Positions 5,863 through 56,635 of a DNA stretch of 64,000 bases are shown one piece after another. The notes under the pieces are model-generated. The model made no database searches, was not told the DNA's origin, and was given only the letters and a program-made list of their open reading frames with translations. Made by a program: the position numbers and the translations under genes. Numbering within the stretch: position 1 is the first letter of the stretch; each line of letters starts with the position of its first letter. This DNA comes from Octopus vulgaris (lineage: Eukaryota): NCBI GenBank assembly GCA_951406725.2, contig OX597820.1, positions 46,004,001 to 46,068,000 on the forward strand, in the 5' to 3' direction.

Positions 5863-6027
5863 TAGGAGTGGCTGTGTGGTGTGGTAAGTAGCTTGCTTAC
5901 CAACCACATGGTTCTGAGTTCAGTCCCACTATGTGGTACCTTGGGCAAGTGTCTTCTACTTATAACCTCGGGCCAACCAAAGCCTTGTGAGTGGATTTGG
6001 TTGACGGAAACTGAAAGAAACCCGTCG

Positions 6028-20280: not shown

Positions 20281-20655
20281 GGCGGCGAGCTGGCAGAAAC
20301 GTTAGCACGCCGGGCGAAATGCTTAGCTGTATTTCGTCTGAGTTCAAATTCCGCCGAGGTCGACTTTGCCTTTCATCCTTTCGGGGTCGAGTACCAGTCA
20401 CGCACTGGGATCGATATAATCGACTTAATCCGTTTGTCTGTCCTTGTTTGTCCTCTCTGTGTTTAGCCCCTTGTGGGTAGTAAAGAAATAGGTATTTCGT
20501 CTGCCGCTACGTTCATAGTTCAAATTCCGCCTAGATCGACTTTACTTTTCGTCCTTTCGGGGTCGCTAAATTAAGTACCAGATGCGTACTGGGGTCGATG
20601 TAATCGACTGGTCTCTCTCCCAAGATTTCGGACCTTGTGCTTAGAGTAGAAAAGA
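20281..20655 (+). mobile_element. SINE family B dimer with TSD
   Basis: ggcggcgagctggcagaaac head; body duplicated from ggtatttcgtctgccg; aattatttgtggt at 20260-20272 and 20655-20667. Confidence 0.9.
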
Positions 20656-25065: not shown

Positions 25066-25232
25066 GAGTGGTGAAAGAGTACAGCAGGGATTACCACCAT
25101 CCCCTGCCGGAGCATCGTGGAGCTTTTAGGTGTTTTCGCTCAATAAACACACACAACGCCCGGTTTGGGAATCGAAACCGCGATCCTCCGACCGCAAGTC
25201 CGCTGCCCTAACCACTGGGCCATTGCGCCTCC
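25066..25232 (-). mobile_element. SINE family D, 5' part, abutting a family A tail
   Basis: Near-identical to 54828-54992 (ggaggcgcaatggcccagtggttaggg on minus). Confidence 0.85.
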
Positions 25233-25586: not shown

Positions 25587-25736
25587 GTGGCTGTGTAGTA
25601 AGTAGCTTGCTTACCAACCACATGGTTCCGTGTTCATTCCCACTGCGTGGCACCTTGAGCAAATGTCTTCTACTATAGACTCGGGCCGACCAAAGCTTTG
25701 TGAGTGGATTTGGTACGGAAACTGAAAGAAGCCCGT

Positions 25737-31866: not shown

Positions 31867-32997
31867 CGAGGGTAAGTCAAAAGTTATAAGCACTCTTGTT
31901 TTTCGGTGCACTTCTTCCAGCGGTACGCAAGGTTGCTTATTCTAGGTGAGCTGGCAGAATCGTTAGCTCGCCGGACGAAATGCTTAGCGGTATTTCGACT
32001 ACCGTTACGTTCTGAGTTCAAATTCCGCCGAGGTCGACTTTGCCTTTCATCCTTTCAGGTCGATAAAATAAGTACCAGTTACGCACTGGGGTCGATATAA
32101 TCGACTTAATCCGTTTGTTTGTCCTTGTTTGTCCTCTCTGTGTGTAGCCCCTTGTGGGCAGTAAAGAAATAGGTATTTAGTCTGCCATTACGTTCTGAAT
32201 TCAAATTCCGCCGAGGTCGACTTTGCCTTTCATCCTTTCGGGGTCGATAAATTAAATACCAGTTACGCACAGGGGTCGATATAATCGACTTAATCCGTTT
32301 GTCTGTCCTTGTTTGTCCCCTCTATGTTTAGCCCCTTGTGGGCAATAAAGAAATAAGATTGCTTATTCTAGCGTGGAAGAAGGATTTCGGCTGGTTGCGC
32401 AACCATTTATGCGCCGTTTCCTGCGCTTCATAGACCGTAGCAAATCGACGACCTCGTAAACGATGTTTGAGCGGTCCACCGAGGTGCAAAGTGTTCCAGC
32501 AATTCAAAACCCAATTTTTTAATGGTTTCAGCGGTGTGAGCTACGAGATGTGGGCGTGCATAGTCGCGCATATTCGTACAACATTAACTCATGATTTGAC
32601 TATAGACCTCGGCGTTTGATGCAAATTGCTGGTTTTAGTTTACTGGCCAGCAGTTCACTGTAGCCTGCACTGATGACTGTAGACACCCTTTTCCTGTTAA
32701 TACTCCAGTTTAGGCCCTTTTGCGTTAAAAAAAAAAACACATTTTTTGTAGAGGGTTGGGTTTCGAATTTAATTTTCATTGGCGATACTGCGTGTTTCCA
32801 TTCCTTAAGTCCGACGAGCGCGCACTACGTGTCTGTACTCTAGGCGTATCAGCCGGAAACTGACGCGACCTACGGGCGCGAAAATATACACGTATGCGCA
32901 GGAAGGGTGGCATAACCAACCATTCCAAAGATTTTGCCCACAGCGCATAAGTTTTGGTGGGAAAAAACATAGTCGGATAGCTTTTGAATGAACCTCT
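31867..32997. mobile_element. Decayed mariner-like element interrupted by a SINE
   Basis: TA-flanked imperfect TIRs CGAGGGTAAGTCAAAAGTTAT / ATAGCTTTTGAATGAACCTCT. Confidence 0.65.
31946..32358 (+). mobile_element. SINE family B dimer with perfect 13 bp TSD
   Basis: TTGCTTATTCTAG at 31933-31945 and 32359-32371. Confidence 0.92.
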
Positions 32998-33757: not shown

Positions 33758-35619
33758 TAAAACATACATGCATGTAGGATGGGCTTCCACGCAATTTTCG
33801 AATGCTAAATTCATTCACAAGGCATTGGTTTACCTGGGCTTACAGTGGAAGACACTTGCAGAATGTGCCACGGATTAGGACTGGATTCGAAACGACGTAG
33901 TTATAAAGTGAGTTTCTTAACCGCACGCTTATGCCTGCGCCTATATGTTCATGTTTTCTAGTTATTCCCGTTAGCTTTCAATTGTTCTTAAGTAGATATA
34001 TAATCAGCTATACTGTATTTCACAATAGAGCTCTAGTCACAAAGGCTTCTACCTCCCTGTATTCGTGGAAGATATAATCTTTTCTGTTCTCTGTGCAAGA
34101 TTTTGGGCGGTGTATTTTAAATACGTGTATTATTCTTCTTGCATTTCTGTGTAGTCTTCCTAGTTATTGTCTGGAACACCTTGAGTATCGATTCGCATTA
34201 AGTTATTGCTTTCGTTTTCAGCTTTATTTTAAGTATTAATCTAACGCGTCTACAACATTACTCCCTCACCTTTTCTTTCGTCTGCGCGTGTGTTGTTTTC
34301 ATTTTAGTTCGTCGGTTACAAATATTTGGATGTCGTTGGTTTGTTTCTCTCTTTTTTTTAAAATTCAAATATCATGCATTTCATTTCAGGTGCACTTCCG
34401 TATTTTGCTTTGTTGTAGAATTTATTTTGATGTTTCTTTATGTTACTCTAGTCTTTTGTGTGTGTTTGTTGTATAAAACATGTGCATTTTAAGTTGTATT
34501 ATTTTGTCGGGTGAGGGCTGAATTTCGTATGAGCTGTGCTGTATGTTTTAGTGTTCGCCTATAATTGTGCAGCTTGTGCTGTGATATTTTATGGATTGCG
34601 TGATTTGTGTTATGGACCGATGTGGCTGTATTTAAATTTTAAACACCTTCCCCACATACATGCATACACACACACATTCTCGTACGCACGCACAGGTACA
34701 TTTGCACAGAAATAAGTTAAAGGTGCAATAAAATACACAATAATTCAAACTAGATATAATTAGCCTAAGTAAATAAAACATGGATGATTATTGATTAGGT
34801 TGAGCTAGAGCACAGCACTACTCTGTTCATTGAACCATTTCTCAGAATATGTACAAGTGCAACCAAGTGTACTCGTAAGCATTTTTGACATATTGCGTGT
34901 TGAAAAACTCTAGCTACTTTGGTGGTATTATTTTTAAAGCTCGGTATGATGTTTTAGTTTTTCTCTGTTAAATAGTCTATTAGATGGTGTTCTTATTCTG
35001 AACTCAACTACCTTTTTGCGTCATTCTAACTTTTTAGAAAGTCCGTGGTACCATAAATGCGTGATTTTATCTATTTTTTTTCTATTATTTTGAGAAATAG
35101 TTAAACCAACAGTGTAGTGGCGTGACCTCACTCAGTCCAAACAATAATCATTCATGTTTTGTCTGTTTTTTTTTTTAAAAAGACGAAGAATTTTAGTTCT
35201 TAGTCTTCGTTTTCATCGTTATTTTCTTGAGATGTATCGTTGTTATCTTGAAGAAATTGTTCCTCCTTACTGTTTCCGTTGTTTTATACTTTATGTGGAG
35301 GAAGGTGGTTTGCATCGTTGGATGCTCTGATCATGTCAATGTGGTAAGCTTCTCACTCCTTTGTAAGTTGGTGCTTATTGTTGTCATTGCACTAAATTTC
35401 CTACCAGTTTCTATATACCATATTCCATTCCCCACCCCACTCATTGCCTACTATATTTGTGGTTCCATATTTTGAAACCCCTTTATGTAAGATGTTATGC
35501 GTATTGCATATAAAGGTCATGCGGACAGCAAAATCAGTTTGTAATTTTCAAGATTTCAAGCGTATGCTCTTCTGTACAACGGTGTTAACAATAGGAGATA
35601 ACTGAAGACATATATATTT

Positions 35620-35833
35620 TTTTCATTTGCTTCAGTTATTTGTCTGCGGCCATGCTGGAGCACCGCATTTAGTCGAACAAATCGACCCCAGGACTTATTC
35701 TTTGTAAGACTAGGACTAATTCTATCGGCCCCTTTAGCCGAACCGCTAAATTACTGGGACGTAAACACACCAAAATCGGTTATCAAGCCGATGGTGGGAA
35801 ACAAGCACAGACACACAAATATATATATTTATG

Positions 35834-35888
<55 letters not shown>

Positions 35889-36275
35889 GTATGTATATGT
35901 ATATATATATAGTTAATCCAAACAAGAAAGCACAAAAAAACACAACAACGCGAGGACGTGGAACAAATATAATATTATTGGACGCTCAGGAAAGAAGGAA
36001 AGAAGGGGGCTCTAACGTTTCGAGCGGAGCTCTTCGTCGGAAATATAGGAGAAGGAAAGATCCAGGGAAGGGAAGACAGAGGAAAAAAATCGCCAACGGT
36101 ACACACGCGGTCACGGGCTTCTTTCAGTTTCCGTCTACCAAATCCACCCACAAGGCTTTTTGTCGGCCCGAGGCTATAGTAGAAGACAATTGCCCAAGGT
36201 ATCACACAGTGAGACTGAACCCGGAACCATGTGGTTGGTAGCAAGCTACTTACCACACAGTCACTCCTGCGCCTA
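35620..36275 (-). mobile_element. SINE family A with a P1 element nested in its internal microsatellite
   Basis: Tail/body 35620-35820, (TA)n, P1 insert 35911-36114, head 36115-36275. Confidence 0.9.
35911..36114 (-). mobile_element. Hammerhead-bearing element, family P1
   Basis: Minus strand CCGACGA-A-GAGC-TCC-GCTC-GAAA-CG-TT (36011-36044). Confidence 0.7.
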
Positions 36276-54610: not shown

Positions 54611-54992
54611 GGAAGCACTCCGTCGGTTACGACGACGAGGGTTCCGGTTGATCCGAATCAACGGAACAGCCTGCTCGTGAAATTAACGTGTAAGTGGCTG
54701 AGCACTCCACAGACACGTGTACCCTTAACGTAGTTCTCGGGGATATTCAGCATGACACAGAGACTGACAAGGCCGGCCCTTTGAAATACAGGTACAACAG
54801 AAACAGGAAGTAAGAGTGAGAGAAAGTTGTGGTGAAAGAGTACAGCAGGGATCACCACCATCCCCTGCCGGAGCCTCGTGGAGCTTTAGGTGTTTTCGCT
54901 CAATAAACACTCACAACGCCCGGTCTGGGAATCGAAACCGCGATCCTATGACCGCGAGTCCGCTGCCCTAACCACTGGGCCATTGCGCCTCC
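54611..54992 (-). mobile_element. SINE family D, apparently full length, flanked by CATA repeats
   Basis: Minus strand tRNA-like head tggcccagtggttaggg...ggtttcgattccc; ~380 bp; second partial copy at 25066. Confidence 0.88.
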
Positions 54993-55057
54993 ACATACAT
55001 ACATACATACATACATACATACATACATACATACATACATACACGTATACACATATC

Positions 55058-55263
55058 TCTTTTACTCTTTTACTTGTTTCAGTCATTTGACTGTGGCCAT
55101 GCTGGAGCAACGCCTTTAGTCGAGCAAATCAACAACAGGACTTATTCTTTGGAAGCCTAGTACTTATTCTATCGGTCTTTTTTGCCTAACCGCTAAGTTA
55201 CGGGGACGTAAATACACCAACATCTGTTGTCAAGCCATATTGGAGGTGCAAACACAGACACGT

Positions 55264-55328
<65 letters not shown>

Positions 55329-55493
55329 CGTATACATATATACGACGGGCTTCTTTCAGTTTCCGTCTACCAAATCCACTCACAAGGCTTTGGCTGGCCC
55401 GAGGCTATAGCAGAAGACACTTGCCCAAGATGCCACGCAGTGGGACTGAACCCGGAACCATGCGATTGGTAAGCAAGCTACTTACCACACAGC
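55058..55493 (-). mobile_element. SINE family A lacking its first ~12 nt, fused to a 5S rRNA fragment
   Basis: Tail at 55058-55110; head starts gctgtgtggtaag at 55493. Confidence 0.9.
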
Positions 55494-55592
55494 ACCTAGG
55501 TTTCCCAAACGGTCACCTATCTAAGTACTGACTAGACTCGACGTTGCTTAACTTCGGTGATCGGACGAGAACCAGTGTTTTCAAAGTGATAT
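55489..55592 (-). pseudogene. 5S rRNA pseudogene (most of the gene, both ends clipped)
   Basis: Minus strand atatcactttgaaaacactggttctcgtccgatcaccgaagttaagcaacgtcgagtctagtcagtacttagataggtgaccgtttgggaaacctaggtgctgt follows invertebrate 5S rRNA, including the box A and box C regions. Confidence 0.93.
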
Positions 55593-56016
55593 ACACATCT
55601 ATTTATATATATGTATATATATATACTTAGATTTAAAAATTATATATATGTATGCGTAGGTGTATAAGTGTATGTATGTATGACGCCGAAATGTGACGGT
55701 CTATCTACATTCCACATCTTATATGTATGACTTTAAGACTAAATGTGTGTGTGTGTGTGTGTGTGTACATACAGACATACATACATTTCGAAATGTTATG
55801 TTATATGTACGTACATGTGTGTTTGTATGTATGTGTATGTGTACGTATGTATGTATGCGCGCGCGTATGTGTGTGTGTTTGTGCGTGCATGCGCGTGTAT
55901 AGGTAATCTGATAATCTGAAAACACGACTATTCATATATAATTACTGCGGTGACATTTTTTCTCTCTTTTCATCCTTTGATCTCTCCAAATTATACAGCT
56001 GTGCAATTCCATACAT

Positions 56017-56635
56017 ATTCTTTTCTACTCTAGGCACAAGGGGCGAAATTTTTTGCGGTGGGAGCCAGTTGATTAGATCGACCCCAGTACGCAACTGGTG
56101 CTTAATTTATCGACCCCGAAAGAATGAAAGGCAAAGTCGACTTCGGCAGAATTTGAACTCAGAACGTTAAGACAAACGAAATACTGCTAAGTATTTCGGC
56201 CGGCGTGCTAACGTTTCTTATTTCTTTATTGCCCACAAGGGGCTAAACATAGAGGGGACAAACAAGGACAGACAAAGGGATTAAGTCGATTACATCGACT
56301 CCACTGCGTAACTGGTACTTAATTTATCGACCCCGAAAGGGTTAAAGGTAAAGTCGATCTCGGAGGAATTTGAACTCAGAACGTAGCGGCAGACGAAATA
56401 CCTATTTCTTTACTACCCACAAAGGGCTAAACACAGAGAGGACAAACAAGGACAGACAAACGGATTAAGTTGATTATATCGACCCCAGTGCGTAACTGGT
56501 ACTTATTTAATCGACCCCGAAAGGATGAAAGGCAAAGTCGACCTCGGCGGAATTTGAACTCAGAACGTAACGGCAGACGAAATACCGCTAAGCATTTCGC
56601 CCGGCGTGCTATCGTTTCTGCCAGCTCGCTGCCTT
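56017..56635 (-). mobile_element. SINE family B trimer
   Basis: Three consecutive bodies; two end in the ccttgtttgtcc..ccttgtggg tail, the last in the cttgtgcctagagtagaaaagaat tail. Confidence 0.9.

What the first reader, a model, noticed from the sequence alone, without database searches (positions are those of the whole stretch)
55058..55600. 5S rRNA-SINE chimera joined at a 5-nt microhomology
Seen: on minus, ~100 nt of 5S rRNA runs without a gap into a family A SINE. The 5S ends ...ggtGCTGT and the SINE starts GCTGTgtggtaag, lacking its usual first ~12 nt (ggcgcaggagtg). A possible TSD (tatacacat..ct at ~55046 and ~55590) brackets both parts, but it is low-complexity. Established: LINE RT template switching makes small RNA-retroposon chimeras, and SINE3 families have 5S-derived heads. 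Inference: a single template-switch insertion that adds a 5S-type Pol III promoter, i.e. a possible nascent SINE3.
Basis: partly seen in the sequence, partly recalled or inferred. Interest (0 to 1): 0.7.

Follow-up and report, generated by a model that had tools for sequence, protein, structure and literature searches.

The report
Recurrent 5S rRNA capture by SINEs
A clipped, decayed copy of 5S ribosomal RNA is fused to a very common jumping element (SINE) inside one 9-base duplication, likely because the copying enzyme hopped between the two RNAs; related genomes hold other such fusions with different joints, so this is likely a single accident of a known kind, not a new element family.

Summary
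On the minus strand, 5S rRNA nt 11-114 (55592-55489) runs into a tRNA-type SINE that lacks its first 13 nt. The two share exactly GCTGT, a match found in about 0.4% of possible joins. An exact 9-nt duplication brackets both parts (about 0.5% in TA-rich controls), and their divergences are compatible (SINE 6.1%, 5S about 4-5%). One retrotransposition event is therefore likely.

The 'nascent SINE3' reading is not supported. No listed contig piece from five runs crosses this junction, and C-box base 85 is mutated. That test is incomplete: it also failed to show this copy itself.

The same contigs show other single-copy 5S-SINE fusions with different joints. Six shown cases join a complete 5S end, a 6-9 nt trailer and 2-4 T's to a whole SINE head, so precursor 5S RNA appears to be captured repeatedly at its U-tail. 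This parallels platypus U6-Mon-1 and anole U6-AnolisSINE2 chimeras.

The main rival is such a U-tail fusion that later lost 32-35 nt between two GCTGT repeats. An empty orthologous site could not be tested. Verdict: new member of a known kind.

The parts
55590..55598 (-). 5' copy of the likely target-site duplication (ATGTGTATA); its last 3 nt (ATA) double as 5S nt 11-13
55489..55592 (-). 5S rRNA retrocopy, nt 11-114; lacks the first 10 and the last ~4-5 nt
   Evidence: Rfam RF00001 77.3 bits; contig pieces and loose ends
55513..55553 (-). 5S internal control region: A box 55553-55539, intermediate element 55536-55531 (private change at nt 67), C box 55523-55513 (private G-to-A at nt 85, 55518)
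   Evidence: box limits from PMC8789306; numbering; other letter in 95-99% of depth at 55518 and about 99% at 55536
55489..55493 (-). 5-nt microhomology GCTGT shared by the 5S 3' end and the SINE A-box region
55341..55493 (-). SINE A head and first body segment, missing its first 13 nt; A-box-like motif cut at its 5' edge, B-box-like motif at 55452-55442 intact (box consensus recalled)
   Evidence: 6 of 151 differences from the window majority
55266..55342 (-). internal (TA)n/(TG)n microsatellite, present in all full SINE A copies aligned
55057..55261 (-). SINE A 3' segment ending in a GTAAAAGA x2 tail (55057-55074)
   Evidence: 15 of 193 differences
55046..55054 (-). 3' copy of the likely target-site duplication (ATGTGTATA), 2 nt beyond the tail

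Best explanation
This is a 5S rRNA-SINE chimeric retrocopy, likely made in one insertion by a borrowed LINE reverse transcriptase that likely jumped from the SINE RNA to a 5S RNA at the shared GCTGT, and it has likely not spread. Inferred steps: (1) priming at a TA-rich nick from the SINE's simple-repeat tail; (2) copying to 13 nt short of the SINE 5' end; (3) the cDNA end pairs with GCUGU 4-5 nt from the 5S 3' end; (4) copying stops at 5S nt 11 and joins the target at a 3-nt ATA match, leaving a 9-nt duplication; (5) neutral decay of about 4-6%. It is one of many separate 5S captures in these genomes. The form shown most often joins a precursor 5S, at its U-tail, to a whole SINE. Shown: anatomy, duplication, divergences, other joints in related contigs. 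Inferred: the enzyme, the switch, the order of events and the lack of spread.
For: Anatomy. The duplication brackets both parts; controls 3/625 and 5/859. Ordinary SINE A heads are preceded by (TA)n (loose ends at 55493: 850-1389 contigs per run); here the TA-rich stretch lies before the 5S instead. Ages are compatible: SINE 21/344 against 3-5 changes in about 90-104 nt of 5S (Fisher p 0.44-0.81; a weak test). Near-head 5' truncation is ordinary: window copies at 25587 and 13146 lack about 8-10 nt. Joints differ among loci: six U-tail fusions with at least three trailer forms, 2-4 T's and different SINE heads, all near single-copy depth (table 5c), plus five single-contig joints at other positions, one inverted (table 5). 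No listed piece crosses the focal junction in X1, X2, X5, X8 or X13. Precedent: platypus U6-L2/Mon-1 chimeras are mostly 5'-truncated with 1-9 bp duplications, and anole has six U6-AnolisSINE2 chimeras (PMC4476161, passages).
Against: A microhomology is equally expected from a later deletion, and the U-tail fusions carry two GCTGT repeats 32-35 nt apart. The empty site was not seen. The contig test did not show this copy itself, so it cannot prove that the junction is unique. The raw-read run X22 gave no depth on the 5S or the unique flank. The five other joints have short sides (25-48 nt), four have unknown letters between, and all were laid at 80% likeness, which the tool flags as unreliable. 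No partner LINE was identified (0 reverse transcriptase hits in 18 of 63 ORFs scanned). Human 5S/L1 chimeras are often antisense and truncated, unlike this one.
Confidence: 0.6

Rival explanations
1. The insertion began as the commoner U-tail chimera (precursor 5S, trailer, T-run, whole SINE). It later lost 32-35 nt between the two GCTGT repeats, by microhomology-mediated repair or by a skip during copying.
For: Six such fusions are shown in X1, X2 and X5 (table 5c). The loose-end consensus at 55489 (30, 45 and 32 contigs) runs through trailer and T-run into AGG-like letters. The predicted deletion product is exactly the focal junction.
Against: It needs two rare events at one locus. SINE cDNAs that stop about 10 nt short of the head are ordinary (2 window copies), and fusions at other internal positions exist, so a direct switch needs only one event.
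Confidence: 0.17
2. Two separate insertions. Either a SINE with its own duplication came first and a 3'-primed ('tailless') 5S copy later entered its head at GCTGT and removed the first 13 nt, or a truncated SINE entered a 5S pseudogene with a target deletion.
For: SINE A is dense (12 head matches in 64 kb), dispersed 5S copies are common, and the 5-nt match could have primed the copying. Unchecked notes e1-8667107 and e1-8670513 describe a LINE that targets SINE heads.
Against: No SINE head remnant lies upstream, no 5S end or trailer lies within about 150 nt beyond the tail, and there is no second duplication. A deletion would have to stop exactly at the first duplication.
Confidence: 0.08
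3. It is a member of a small 5S-headed SINE family (SINE3) copied from a master with this junction.
For: The junction removes the terminator: no run of 4 or more T lies in the 536-nt element, so a 5S-promoted transcript could read through. This route is proposed for AmnSINE1-type elements and HaSE3. An octopus repeat table lists a '5S' SINE class of 4 families and 9.83 Mb without describing it (PMC13282606 Table S1). Young copies can drop out of contigs.
Against: One copy in the window. No junction-crossing piece among the 8 longest listed per run in five runs, although diverged members would have headed the list. The private changes at nt 67 and 85 are nearly absent from other 5S contigs.
Confidence: 0.08
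4. It is one insertion, but the join was made differently: two RNA fragments were ligated before copying (RtcB type), or two cDNAs were joined by repair at the microhomology.
For: RNA ligation is shown for human U6/L1 (PMC6789731, passages), and it also gives same-sense fusions.
Against: Ligation predicts no microhomology, yet the 5-nt match is reached by 0.4% of joins. The same paper leaves 3'-truncated 5S chimeras open to template switching.
Confidence: 0.07

Closest known systems
U6-SINE and U6-LINE template-switch chimeras with stringent LINEs: platypus U6-L2 and U6-Mon-1, anole U6-AnolisSINE2 (PMC4476161, passages read)
   Same: A small Pol III RNA lies 5' of and in the same sense as a SINE; the small RNA is 5'-truncated; the duplication is 1-9 bp; the tail is a simple repeat; the events are independent.
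   Different: The passenger is 5S rRNA rather than U6, the host is an invertebrate, and the SINE is nearly complete and joined at a 5-nt microhomology inside the 5S.
Human 5S/L1 and U6/L1 chimeric retrogenes (bioRxiv 10.1101/2025.02.02.635956 and PMC6789731, passages read)
   Same: A 5S segment and a retroposon lie inside one duplication; template switching or RNA ligation is proposed.
   Different: Human 5S/L1 cases are often antisense and cut at nt 46 or 90, and the partner is L1. Here the sense is the same, the 5S covers nt 11-114, and the partner is a SINE.
SINE3 families born from a 5S head on a tRNA SINE: AmnSINE1/OS-SINE1 type (Nishihara 2006, as cited in PMC4824008, PMC4494074, PMC4758252; original not read) and moth HaSE3 (PMC3272025, passages)
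   Same: A 5S segment with A, IE and C boxes sits in front of a tRNA-SINE; the proposed origin is the same template switch.
   Different: Those are amplified families with a shared junction. Here no second copy was seen, the C box has a private change, and almost the whole tRNA head is kept.
Octopus tRNA-derived SINEs OK, OR1, OR2 (Ohshima and Okada 1994; seen only as citations; the name OK is recalled) and the 'tRNA-Deu' and '5S' SINE classes of PMC13282606 (tables read)
   Same: Probably the same animal group (inferred from recall and from unchecked notes); SINEs are very abundant; a SINE/LINE burst at JC distance 0.065 matches the 6% seen here.
   Different: No reference sequence was available, so SINE A was not assigned to a named family, and the published '5S' class could not be compared.

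Membership tests
SINE3 (5S-derived SINE family) | Head with at least 60% identity to 5S rRNA over at least 60 nt (SINEBase) | tested here: met
   104 nt, Rfam 77.3 bits
SINE3 (5S-derived SINE family) | At least 100 interspersed copies with the same modules (SINEBase) | tested here: inconclusive
   1 copy in the window; no crossing piece among the longest listed in five contig runs, which argues against a diverged family, but the copy itself was not shown either; no genome held
SINE3 (5S-derived SINE family) | Working type 1 Pol III promoter (A box, IE, C box) | tested here: inconclusive
   Boxes are present; private changes at nt 67 (IE) and nt 85 (C box); activity not measured
SINE3 (5S-derived SINE family) | No internal Pol III terminator | tested here: met
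   Longest T-run is 3 in 55057-55592 minus
SINE3 (5S-derived SINE family) | Diagnostic substitutions shared among copies and absent from the cellular 5S gene | tested here: not met
   The focal letters at 55518 and 55536 are carried by at most about 1-5% of 5S contig depth in five runs; full sequences of other copies could not be retrieved
SINE3 (5S-derived SINE family) | 3' end shared with a partner LINE | not tested
   No LINE found among 18 of 63 window ORFs scanned; no genome held
SINE3 (5S-derived SINE family) | Transcribed by Pol III as one unit | not testable with these tools
   No raw RNA reads for this organism were listed
Small RNA-retroposon chimeric retrogene (Buzdin type) | Small RNA 5' of, abutting and in the same sense as a retroposon with an intact 3' end | tested here: met
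Small RNA-retroposon chimeric retrogene (Buzdin type) | One target-site duplication around both parts | tested here: met
   Exact 9 nt; controls 3/625, 5/859 and 0/19; TA-rich context
Small RNA-retroposon chimeric retrogene (Buzdin type) | Both parts of the same age | tested here: met
   6.1% against about 3-5%, not different; low power
Small RNA-retroposon chimeric retrogene (Buzdin type) | Both parts absent together from the orthologous empty site | tested here: inconclusive
   The upstream flank is in X1 (0 differences) and X2 (1 difference), but those contigs are too short to reach the 5S
Small RNA-retroposon chimeric retrogene (Buzdin type) | Independent origin: junctions differ between loci | tested here: met
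   Six U-tail joints with differing trailers and T-runs; five joints at other positions, weaker

The most novel reading that the evidence does not exclude
These animals may carry a true, undescribed 5S-headed SINE: precursor 5S plus trailer plus a T-run too short to terminate (3 or fewer T's in 4 of 6 shown joints) plus a whole tRNA SINE, copied as one two-promoter unit. The focal locus would be a terminator-free derivative. That would be a characterised SINE3 in a mollusc-like genome, caught together with its raw material, and could be what the undescribed 9.8-Mb '5S' SINE class in an octopus repeat table is.
Probability: 0.12. Interest if true: 0.55.

Novelty: new member of a known kind. Interest (0 to 1): 0.3.

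Why it matters
The locus itself is probably a dead one-off. Its context is more useful. The step proposed for the birth of 5S-headed SINEs (a switch from a tRNA SINE to 5S rRNA) appears to have happened many times in these genomes, without a family being shown. With a whole assembly one could ask what separates a failed capture from a founder: loss of the terminator, an intact C box, or upstream promoter signals. The U-tail fusions also preserve unprocessed 5S ends with 6-9 nt trailers, a fossil record of 5S processing. Repeat libraries that list a '5S SINE' class in octopus should be checked for such chimeras and for plain 5S arrays.

Tried and rejected
No genome is held for this window, so the direct junction count was impossible.

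A 30-nt SINE A pattern found nothing in the viral, prokaryotic-genome or metagenome collections, so no full-length related locus could be fetched.

Raw-read run X22 (about 3% read) gave zero depth on the 5S, the short SINE piece and the unique flank; only microsatellite reads were laid. A filter or a different organism may explain it; I did not use it.

Summed contig depth was not used as a copy number, as the tool warns. Over nt 29-70 it exceeds the 3' half by about 3-fold in X1 and up to about 20-30-fold in X8 and X13. I considered a high-copy family with a half 5S head. The loose-end lists of X1, X2 and X5 show no large group leaving there (next best 4-10 contigs); X8 and X13 could not be checked, because SINE rows filled their lists.

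The raised X1 depth at 55497-55502 comes from 30 contigs with one identical loose end, probably a library adapter (recalled). X1 joints were therefore trusted only where X2 and X5 show the same type. One X1 joint (55493 to 55660) lands in a microsatellite and was dropped. Of 12 rows shown table 5c, six were microsatellite rows of X22, and 9 rows were not shown. Of 12 shown, two repeated X1 joints and ten were SINE-to-SINE; 16 were not shown.

Folding gave no signal (z -0.10 for the 5S part; 1.19 and 0.43 for SINE heads). ARAGORN found no tRNA. Pfam found no reverse transcriptase in 18 of 63 ORFs (four hits, all below cut-off).

SINEBase supplements were not readable and bioRxiv supplements are closed; either may hold consensus sequences or 5S chimera lists that bear on naming and novelty. 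Look-ups of earlier findings by sequence, words, relatives and near place were empty.

Full report
Setting. The window is repeat-rich, AT-rich eukaryote-type DNA; GC is 0.25-0.47 in 2-kb bins. No genome is held for it. The repeats look like octopus SINEs from recall, and unchecked notes on the same genome say octopus. I did not test this with a reference sequence.

Observation. Rfam's only hit in the window is 5S rRNA, 77.3 bits, at 55484-55602 minus. The true match is nt 11-114 (55592-55489; numbering). The first 10 model positions are AT-rich flank. Other 5S contigs have GGCC before this point and AAG after nt 114, so the copy is clipped at both ends. The 5S runs directly into SINE A, which has 12 head matches in the window including this one. 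Complete copies begin AGGCGCAGGAGTG-GCTGT, so 13 nt are missing. The overlap GCTGT is exactly 5 nt. Of 1640 possible joins between the last 40 nt of this 5S and the first 40 nt of a complete SINE, 6 reach 5 nt (0.37%; theory 0.46%). The SINE is otherwise whole: head, internal microsatellite, 3' segment and a GTAAAAGA x2 tail ending at 55057.

One insertion or two. ATGTGTATA is exact at 55590-55598 and 55046-55054. With the same slack of 4 nt, 9 nt or more was reached by 10 and 14 of 5486 control sites, and by 3 of 625 and 5 of 859 TA-rich ones. Of 101 non-cognate flank pairs, 7 reached 9 nt, all pure (TA)n; none of the 19 with a focal flank passed 6 nt. Against this, three of the other cognate pairs tested gave only 2-4 nt, so SINE A does not always keep a clear duplication. 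Ordinary SINE A heads follow (TA)n (850-1389 contigs per run); here the TA-rich stretch precedes the 5S. The missing SINE head is not upstream, and the missing 5S end is not beyond the tail. The SINE differs from the window majority at 21 of 344 sites (6.1%). The 5S differs from the depth majority at four listed sites: 55518, 55530, 55536 and 55542. The last is a natural variant, since the other letter holds only 50-88% of depth. A fifth change at nt 18 is inferred from pairing. These rates do not differ (p 0.44-0.81), though the test is weak. One event is the simplest reading.

Is the junction a family? Of 24 listed runs, 20 hold part of the region. I laid one raw-read run and five contig runs from organisms A-E. 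In one search the stretch was chosen so that a junction-crossing piece would be the longest. The 8 longest pieces per run were all 5S-only (97-105 nt, 12-20 differences, near single-copy depth, some with more than 1 kb of other sequence upstream). A diverged family with this junction should have headed the list; none did. The copy itself was not listed either. My guess is that short single-copy links between high-copy repeats are dropped in such contigs, so young copies are not excluded. X22 raw reads showed nothing on the 5S or the flank and were uninformative. The empty site could not be reached: the upstream flank is present in X1 (0 differences) and X2 (1 difference), but those contigs are too short to reach the 5S.

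What the contigs did show. Six distinct contigs in X1 (3), X2 (2) and X5 (1) have a complete 5S end, a 6-9 nt trailer, 2-4 T's (sometimes with extra A or AT) and then a complete SINE A head (table 5c; 6 of 12 rows shown, 9 not shown). Trailers come in at least three forms: GTCACACA-like in four, GTCTCACAC and AATCTG. The heads differ from each other. Depths (46-79 in X1 and X2, 5.9 in X5) are near single-copy. Loose ends at 55489 come from 30, 45 and 32 contigs; their consensus passes through trailer and T-run into AGG-like letters, with median lengths of 42-47 nt, as expected if many contigs end inside a SINE head. That gives perhaps dozens of fusions per genome; I could not count them. One search adds five single-contig joints at other positions (X13 55454/55491 and 55490/55531, X8 55474/55531, X1 55493/55553, X2 inverted 55495/55572). 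These are weaker: short sides, unknown letters between in four, 80% likeness. U-tail joints were not among the rows shown for X8 or X13. Varied junctions are the mark of independent captures; Kojima uses the converse argument to establish SINEU families (PMC4494074, passages). The trailers suggest that unprocessed 5S transcripts were the templates. Precursor 5S carries U-rich 3' extensions trimmed by Rex1p or Rexo5 (PMC13215694, passages), and extra nucleotides before the T-run are known in some animals (PMC8789306, passages).

Mechanism. Most likely (0.6) a LINE enzyme primed on the SINE tail at a TA-rich nick and stopped 13 nt short of the head, as two other window copies roughly do. It then paired its cDNA end with GCUGU near the 5S 3' end, copied to nt 11 and joined the target at ATA. 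All of these steps are inferred. The chief rival (0.17) is a U-tail fusion that later lost 32-35 nt between its two GCTGT repeats; it yields the same sequence but needs a second rare event. Separate insertions (0.08), a small family (0.08) and ligation or repair joining (0.07) follow.

Promoter. The junction removes the terminator; no T-run exceeds 3 in the 536-nt element. But nt 85 in the C box is A where 95-99% of depth has G, and nt 67 in the intermediate element is also private. The C box recruits TFIIIA (PMC8789306); that G85 is a key contact is recalled, not checked. Retroposed 5S promoters are thought to be weak without upstream signals (PMC3272025, passages). When these changes arose is unknown.

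Comparison and novelty. It works like the platypus U6-Mon-1 and anole U6-AnolisSINE2 chimeras (PMC4476161, passages) and meets the testable features of that class except the empty site. It is not filed as SINE3: copy number is inconclusive and shared diagnostic sites were not found. [quoted passage not shown] My searches (listings, with passages of selected papers) found no description of 5S-SINE chimeras in cephalopods. However, PMC13282606 lists a '5S' SINE class in an octopus: 4 families and 9.83 Mb in Table S1 (supplement read whole), and 7 recent insertions covering 42 kb in Table 1. The passages I read do not describe it. About 6 kb per insertion suggests tandem 5S arrays, which is my inference. 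Also read as passages: PMC4758252, PMC3531059, PMC4824008, PMC5804259, PMC6789731, PMC10886601 and bioRxiv 2025.02.02.635956. Earlier unchecked notes report two other 5S fusions with different joints and many precursor-tRNA, U6 and 5.8S fusions in this genome. I saw the U-tail joints before reading them; they agree with my reading but are not independent support.

Verdict. A real, probably unique and inactive chimeric retrocopy of a known kind, in a genome where 5S capture by SINEs recurs. Interest 0.3. The boldest open reading, an amplified two-promoter 5S SINE, has about 0.12 probability.

Noticed in passing
window 54611-54992 (-): A second tRNA-like SINE (A- and B-box-like motifs) sits in the (TATG)n array about 55 nt beyond the SINE A duplication; its first 165 nt match 25068-25232 at 95%.
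   Followed up: partly
window 56219-56586: Tandem dimer of a 184-bp unit (90% identity) of another abundant repeat; similar multi-unit matches at about 877-1200, 20295-20611 and 31956-32358.
   Followed up: no
window 55542 and 55530 (5S nt 61 and 73): 5S nt 61 is dimorphic in all five contig runs (other letter 50-88% of depth), and nt 73 has a third letter in X13 (37%), suggesting at least two 5S gene types.
   Followed up: partly
window 55533-55574 (5S nt 29-70): Summed contig depth here exceeds the 5S 3' half about 3-fold in X1 and up to about 20-30-fold in X8 and X13; clipping of short contigs is the likely cause, but a half-5S repeat in organisms D and E is not excluded.
   Followed up: partly
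window 55425-55495 (contigs laid): Ten shown joints link a SINE A position to another SINE A position, several at 55490-55495, i.e. SINE-on-SINE fusions or insertions near the same head region.
   Followed up: no
window 35608-36274 (-): This SINE A copy carries an insertion of about 210 nt just before its internal microsatellite.
   Followed up: no
window 5864-5880 (+): This SINE A copy starts AGGAGTGG and has a short internal repeat of GTGG in the A-box region.
   Followed up: no
run X1 at window 55502: 30 contigs end in one identical loose end, probably a library adapter (recalled), which inflates depth at 55497-55502.
   Followed up: partly
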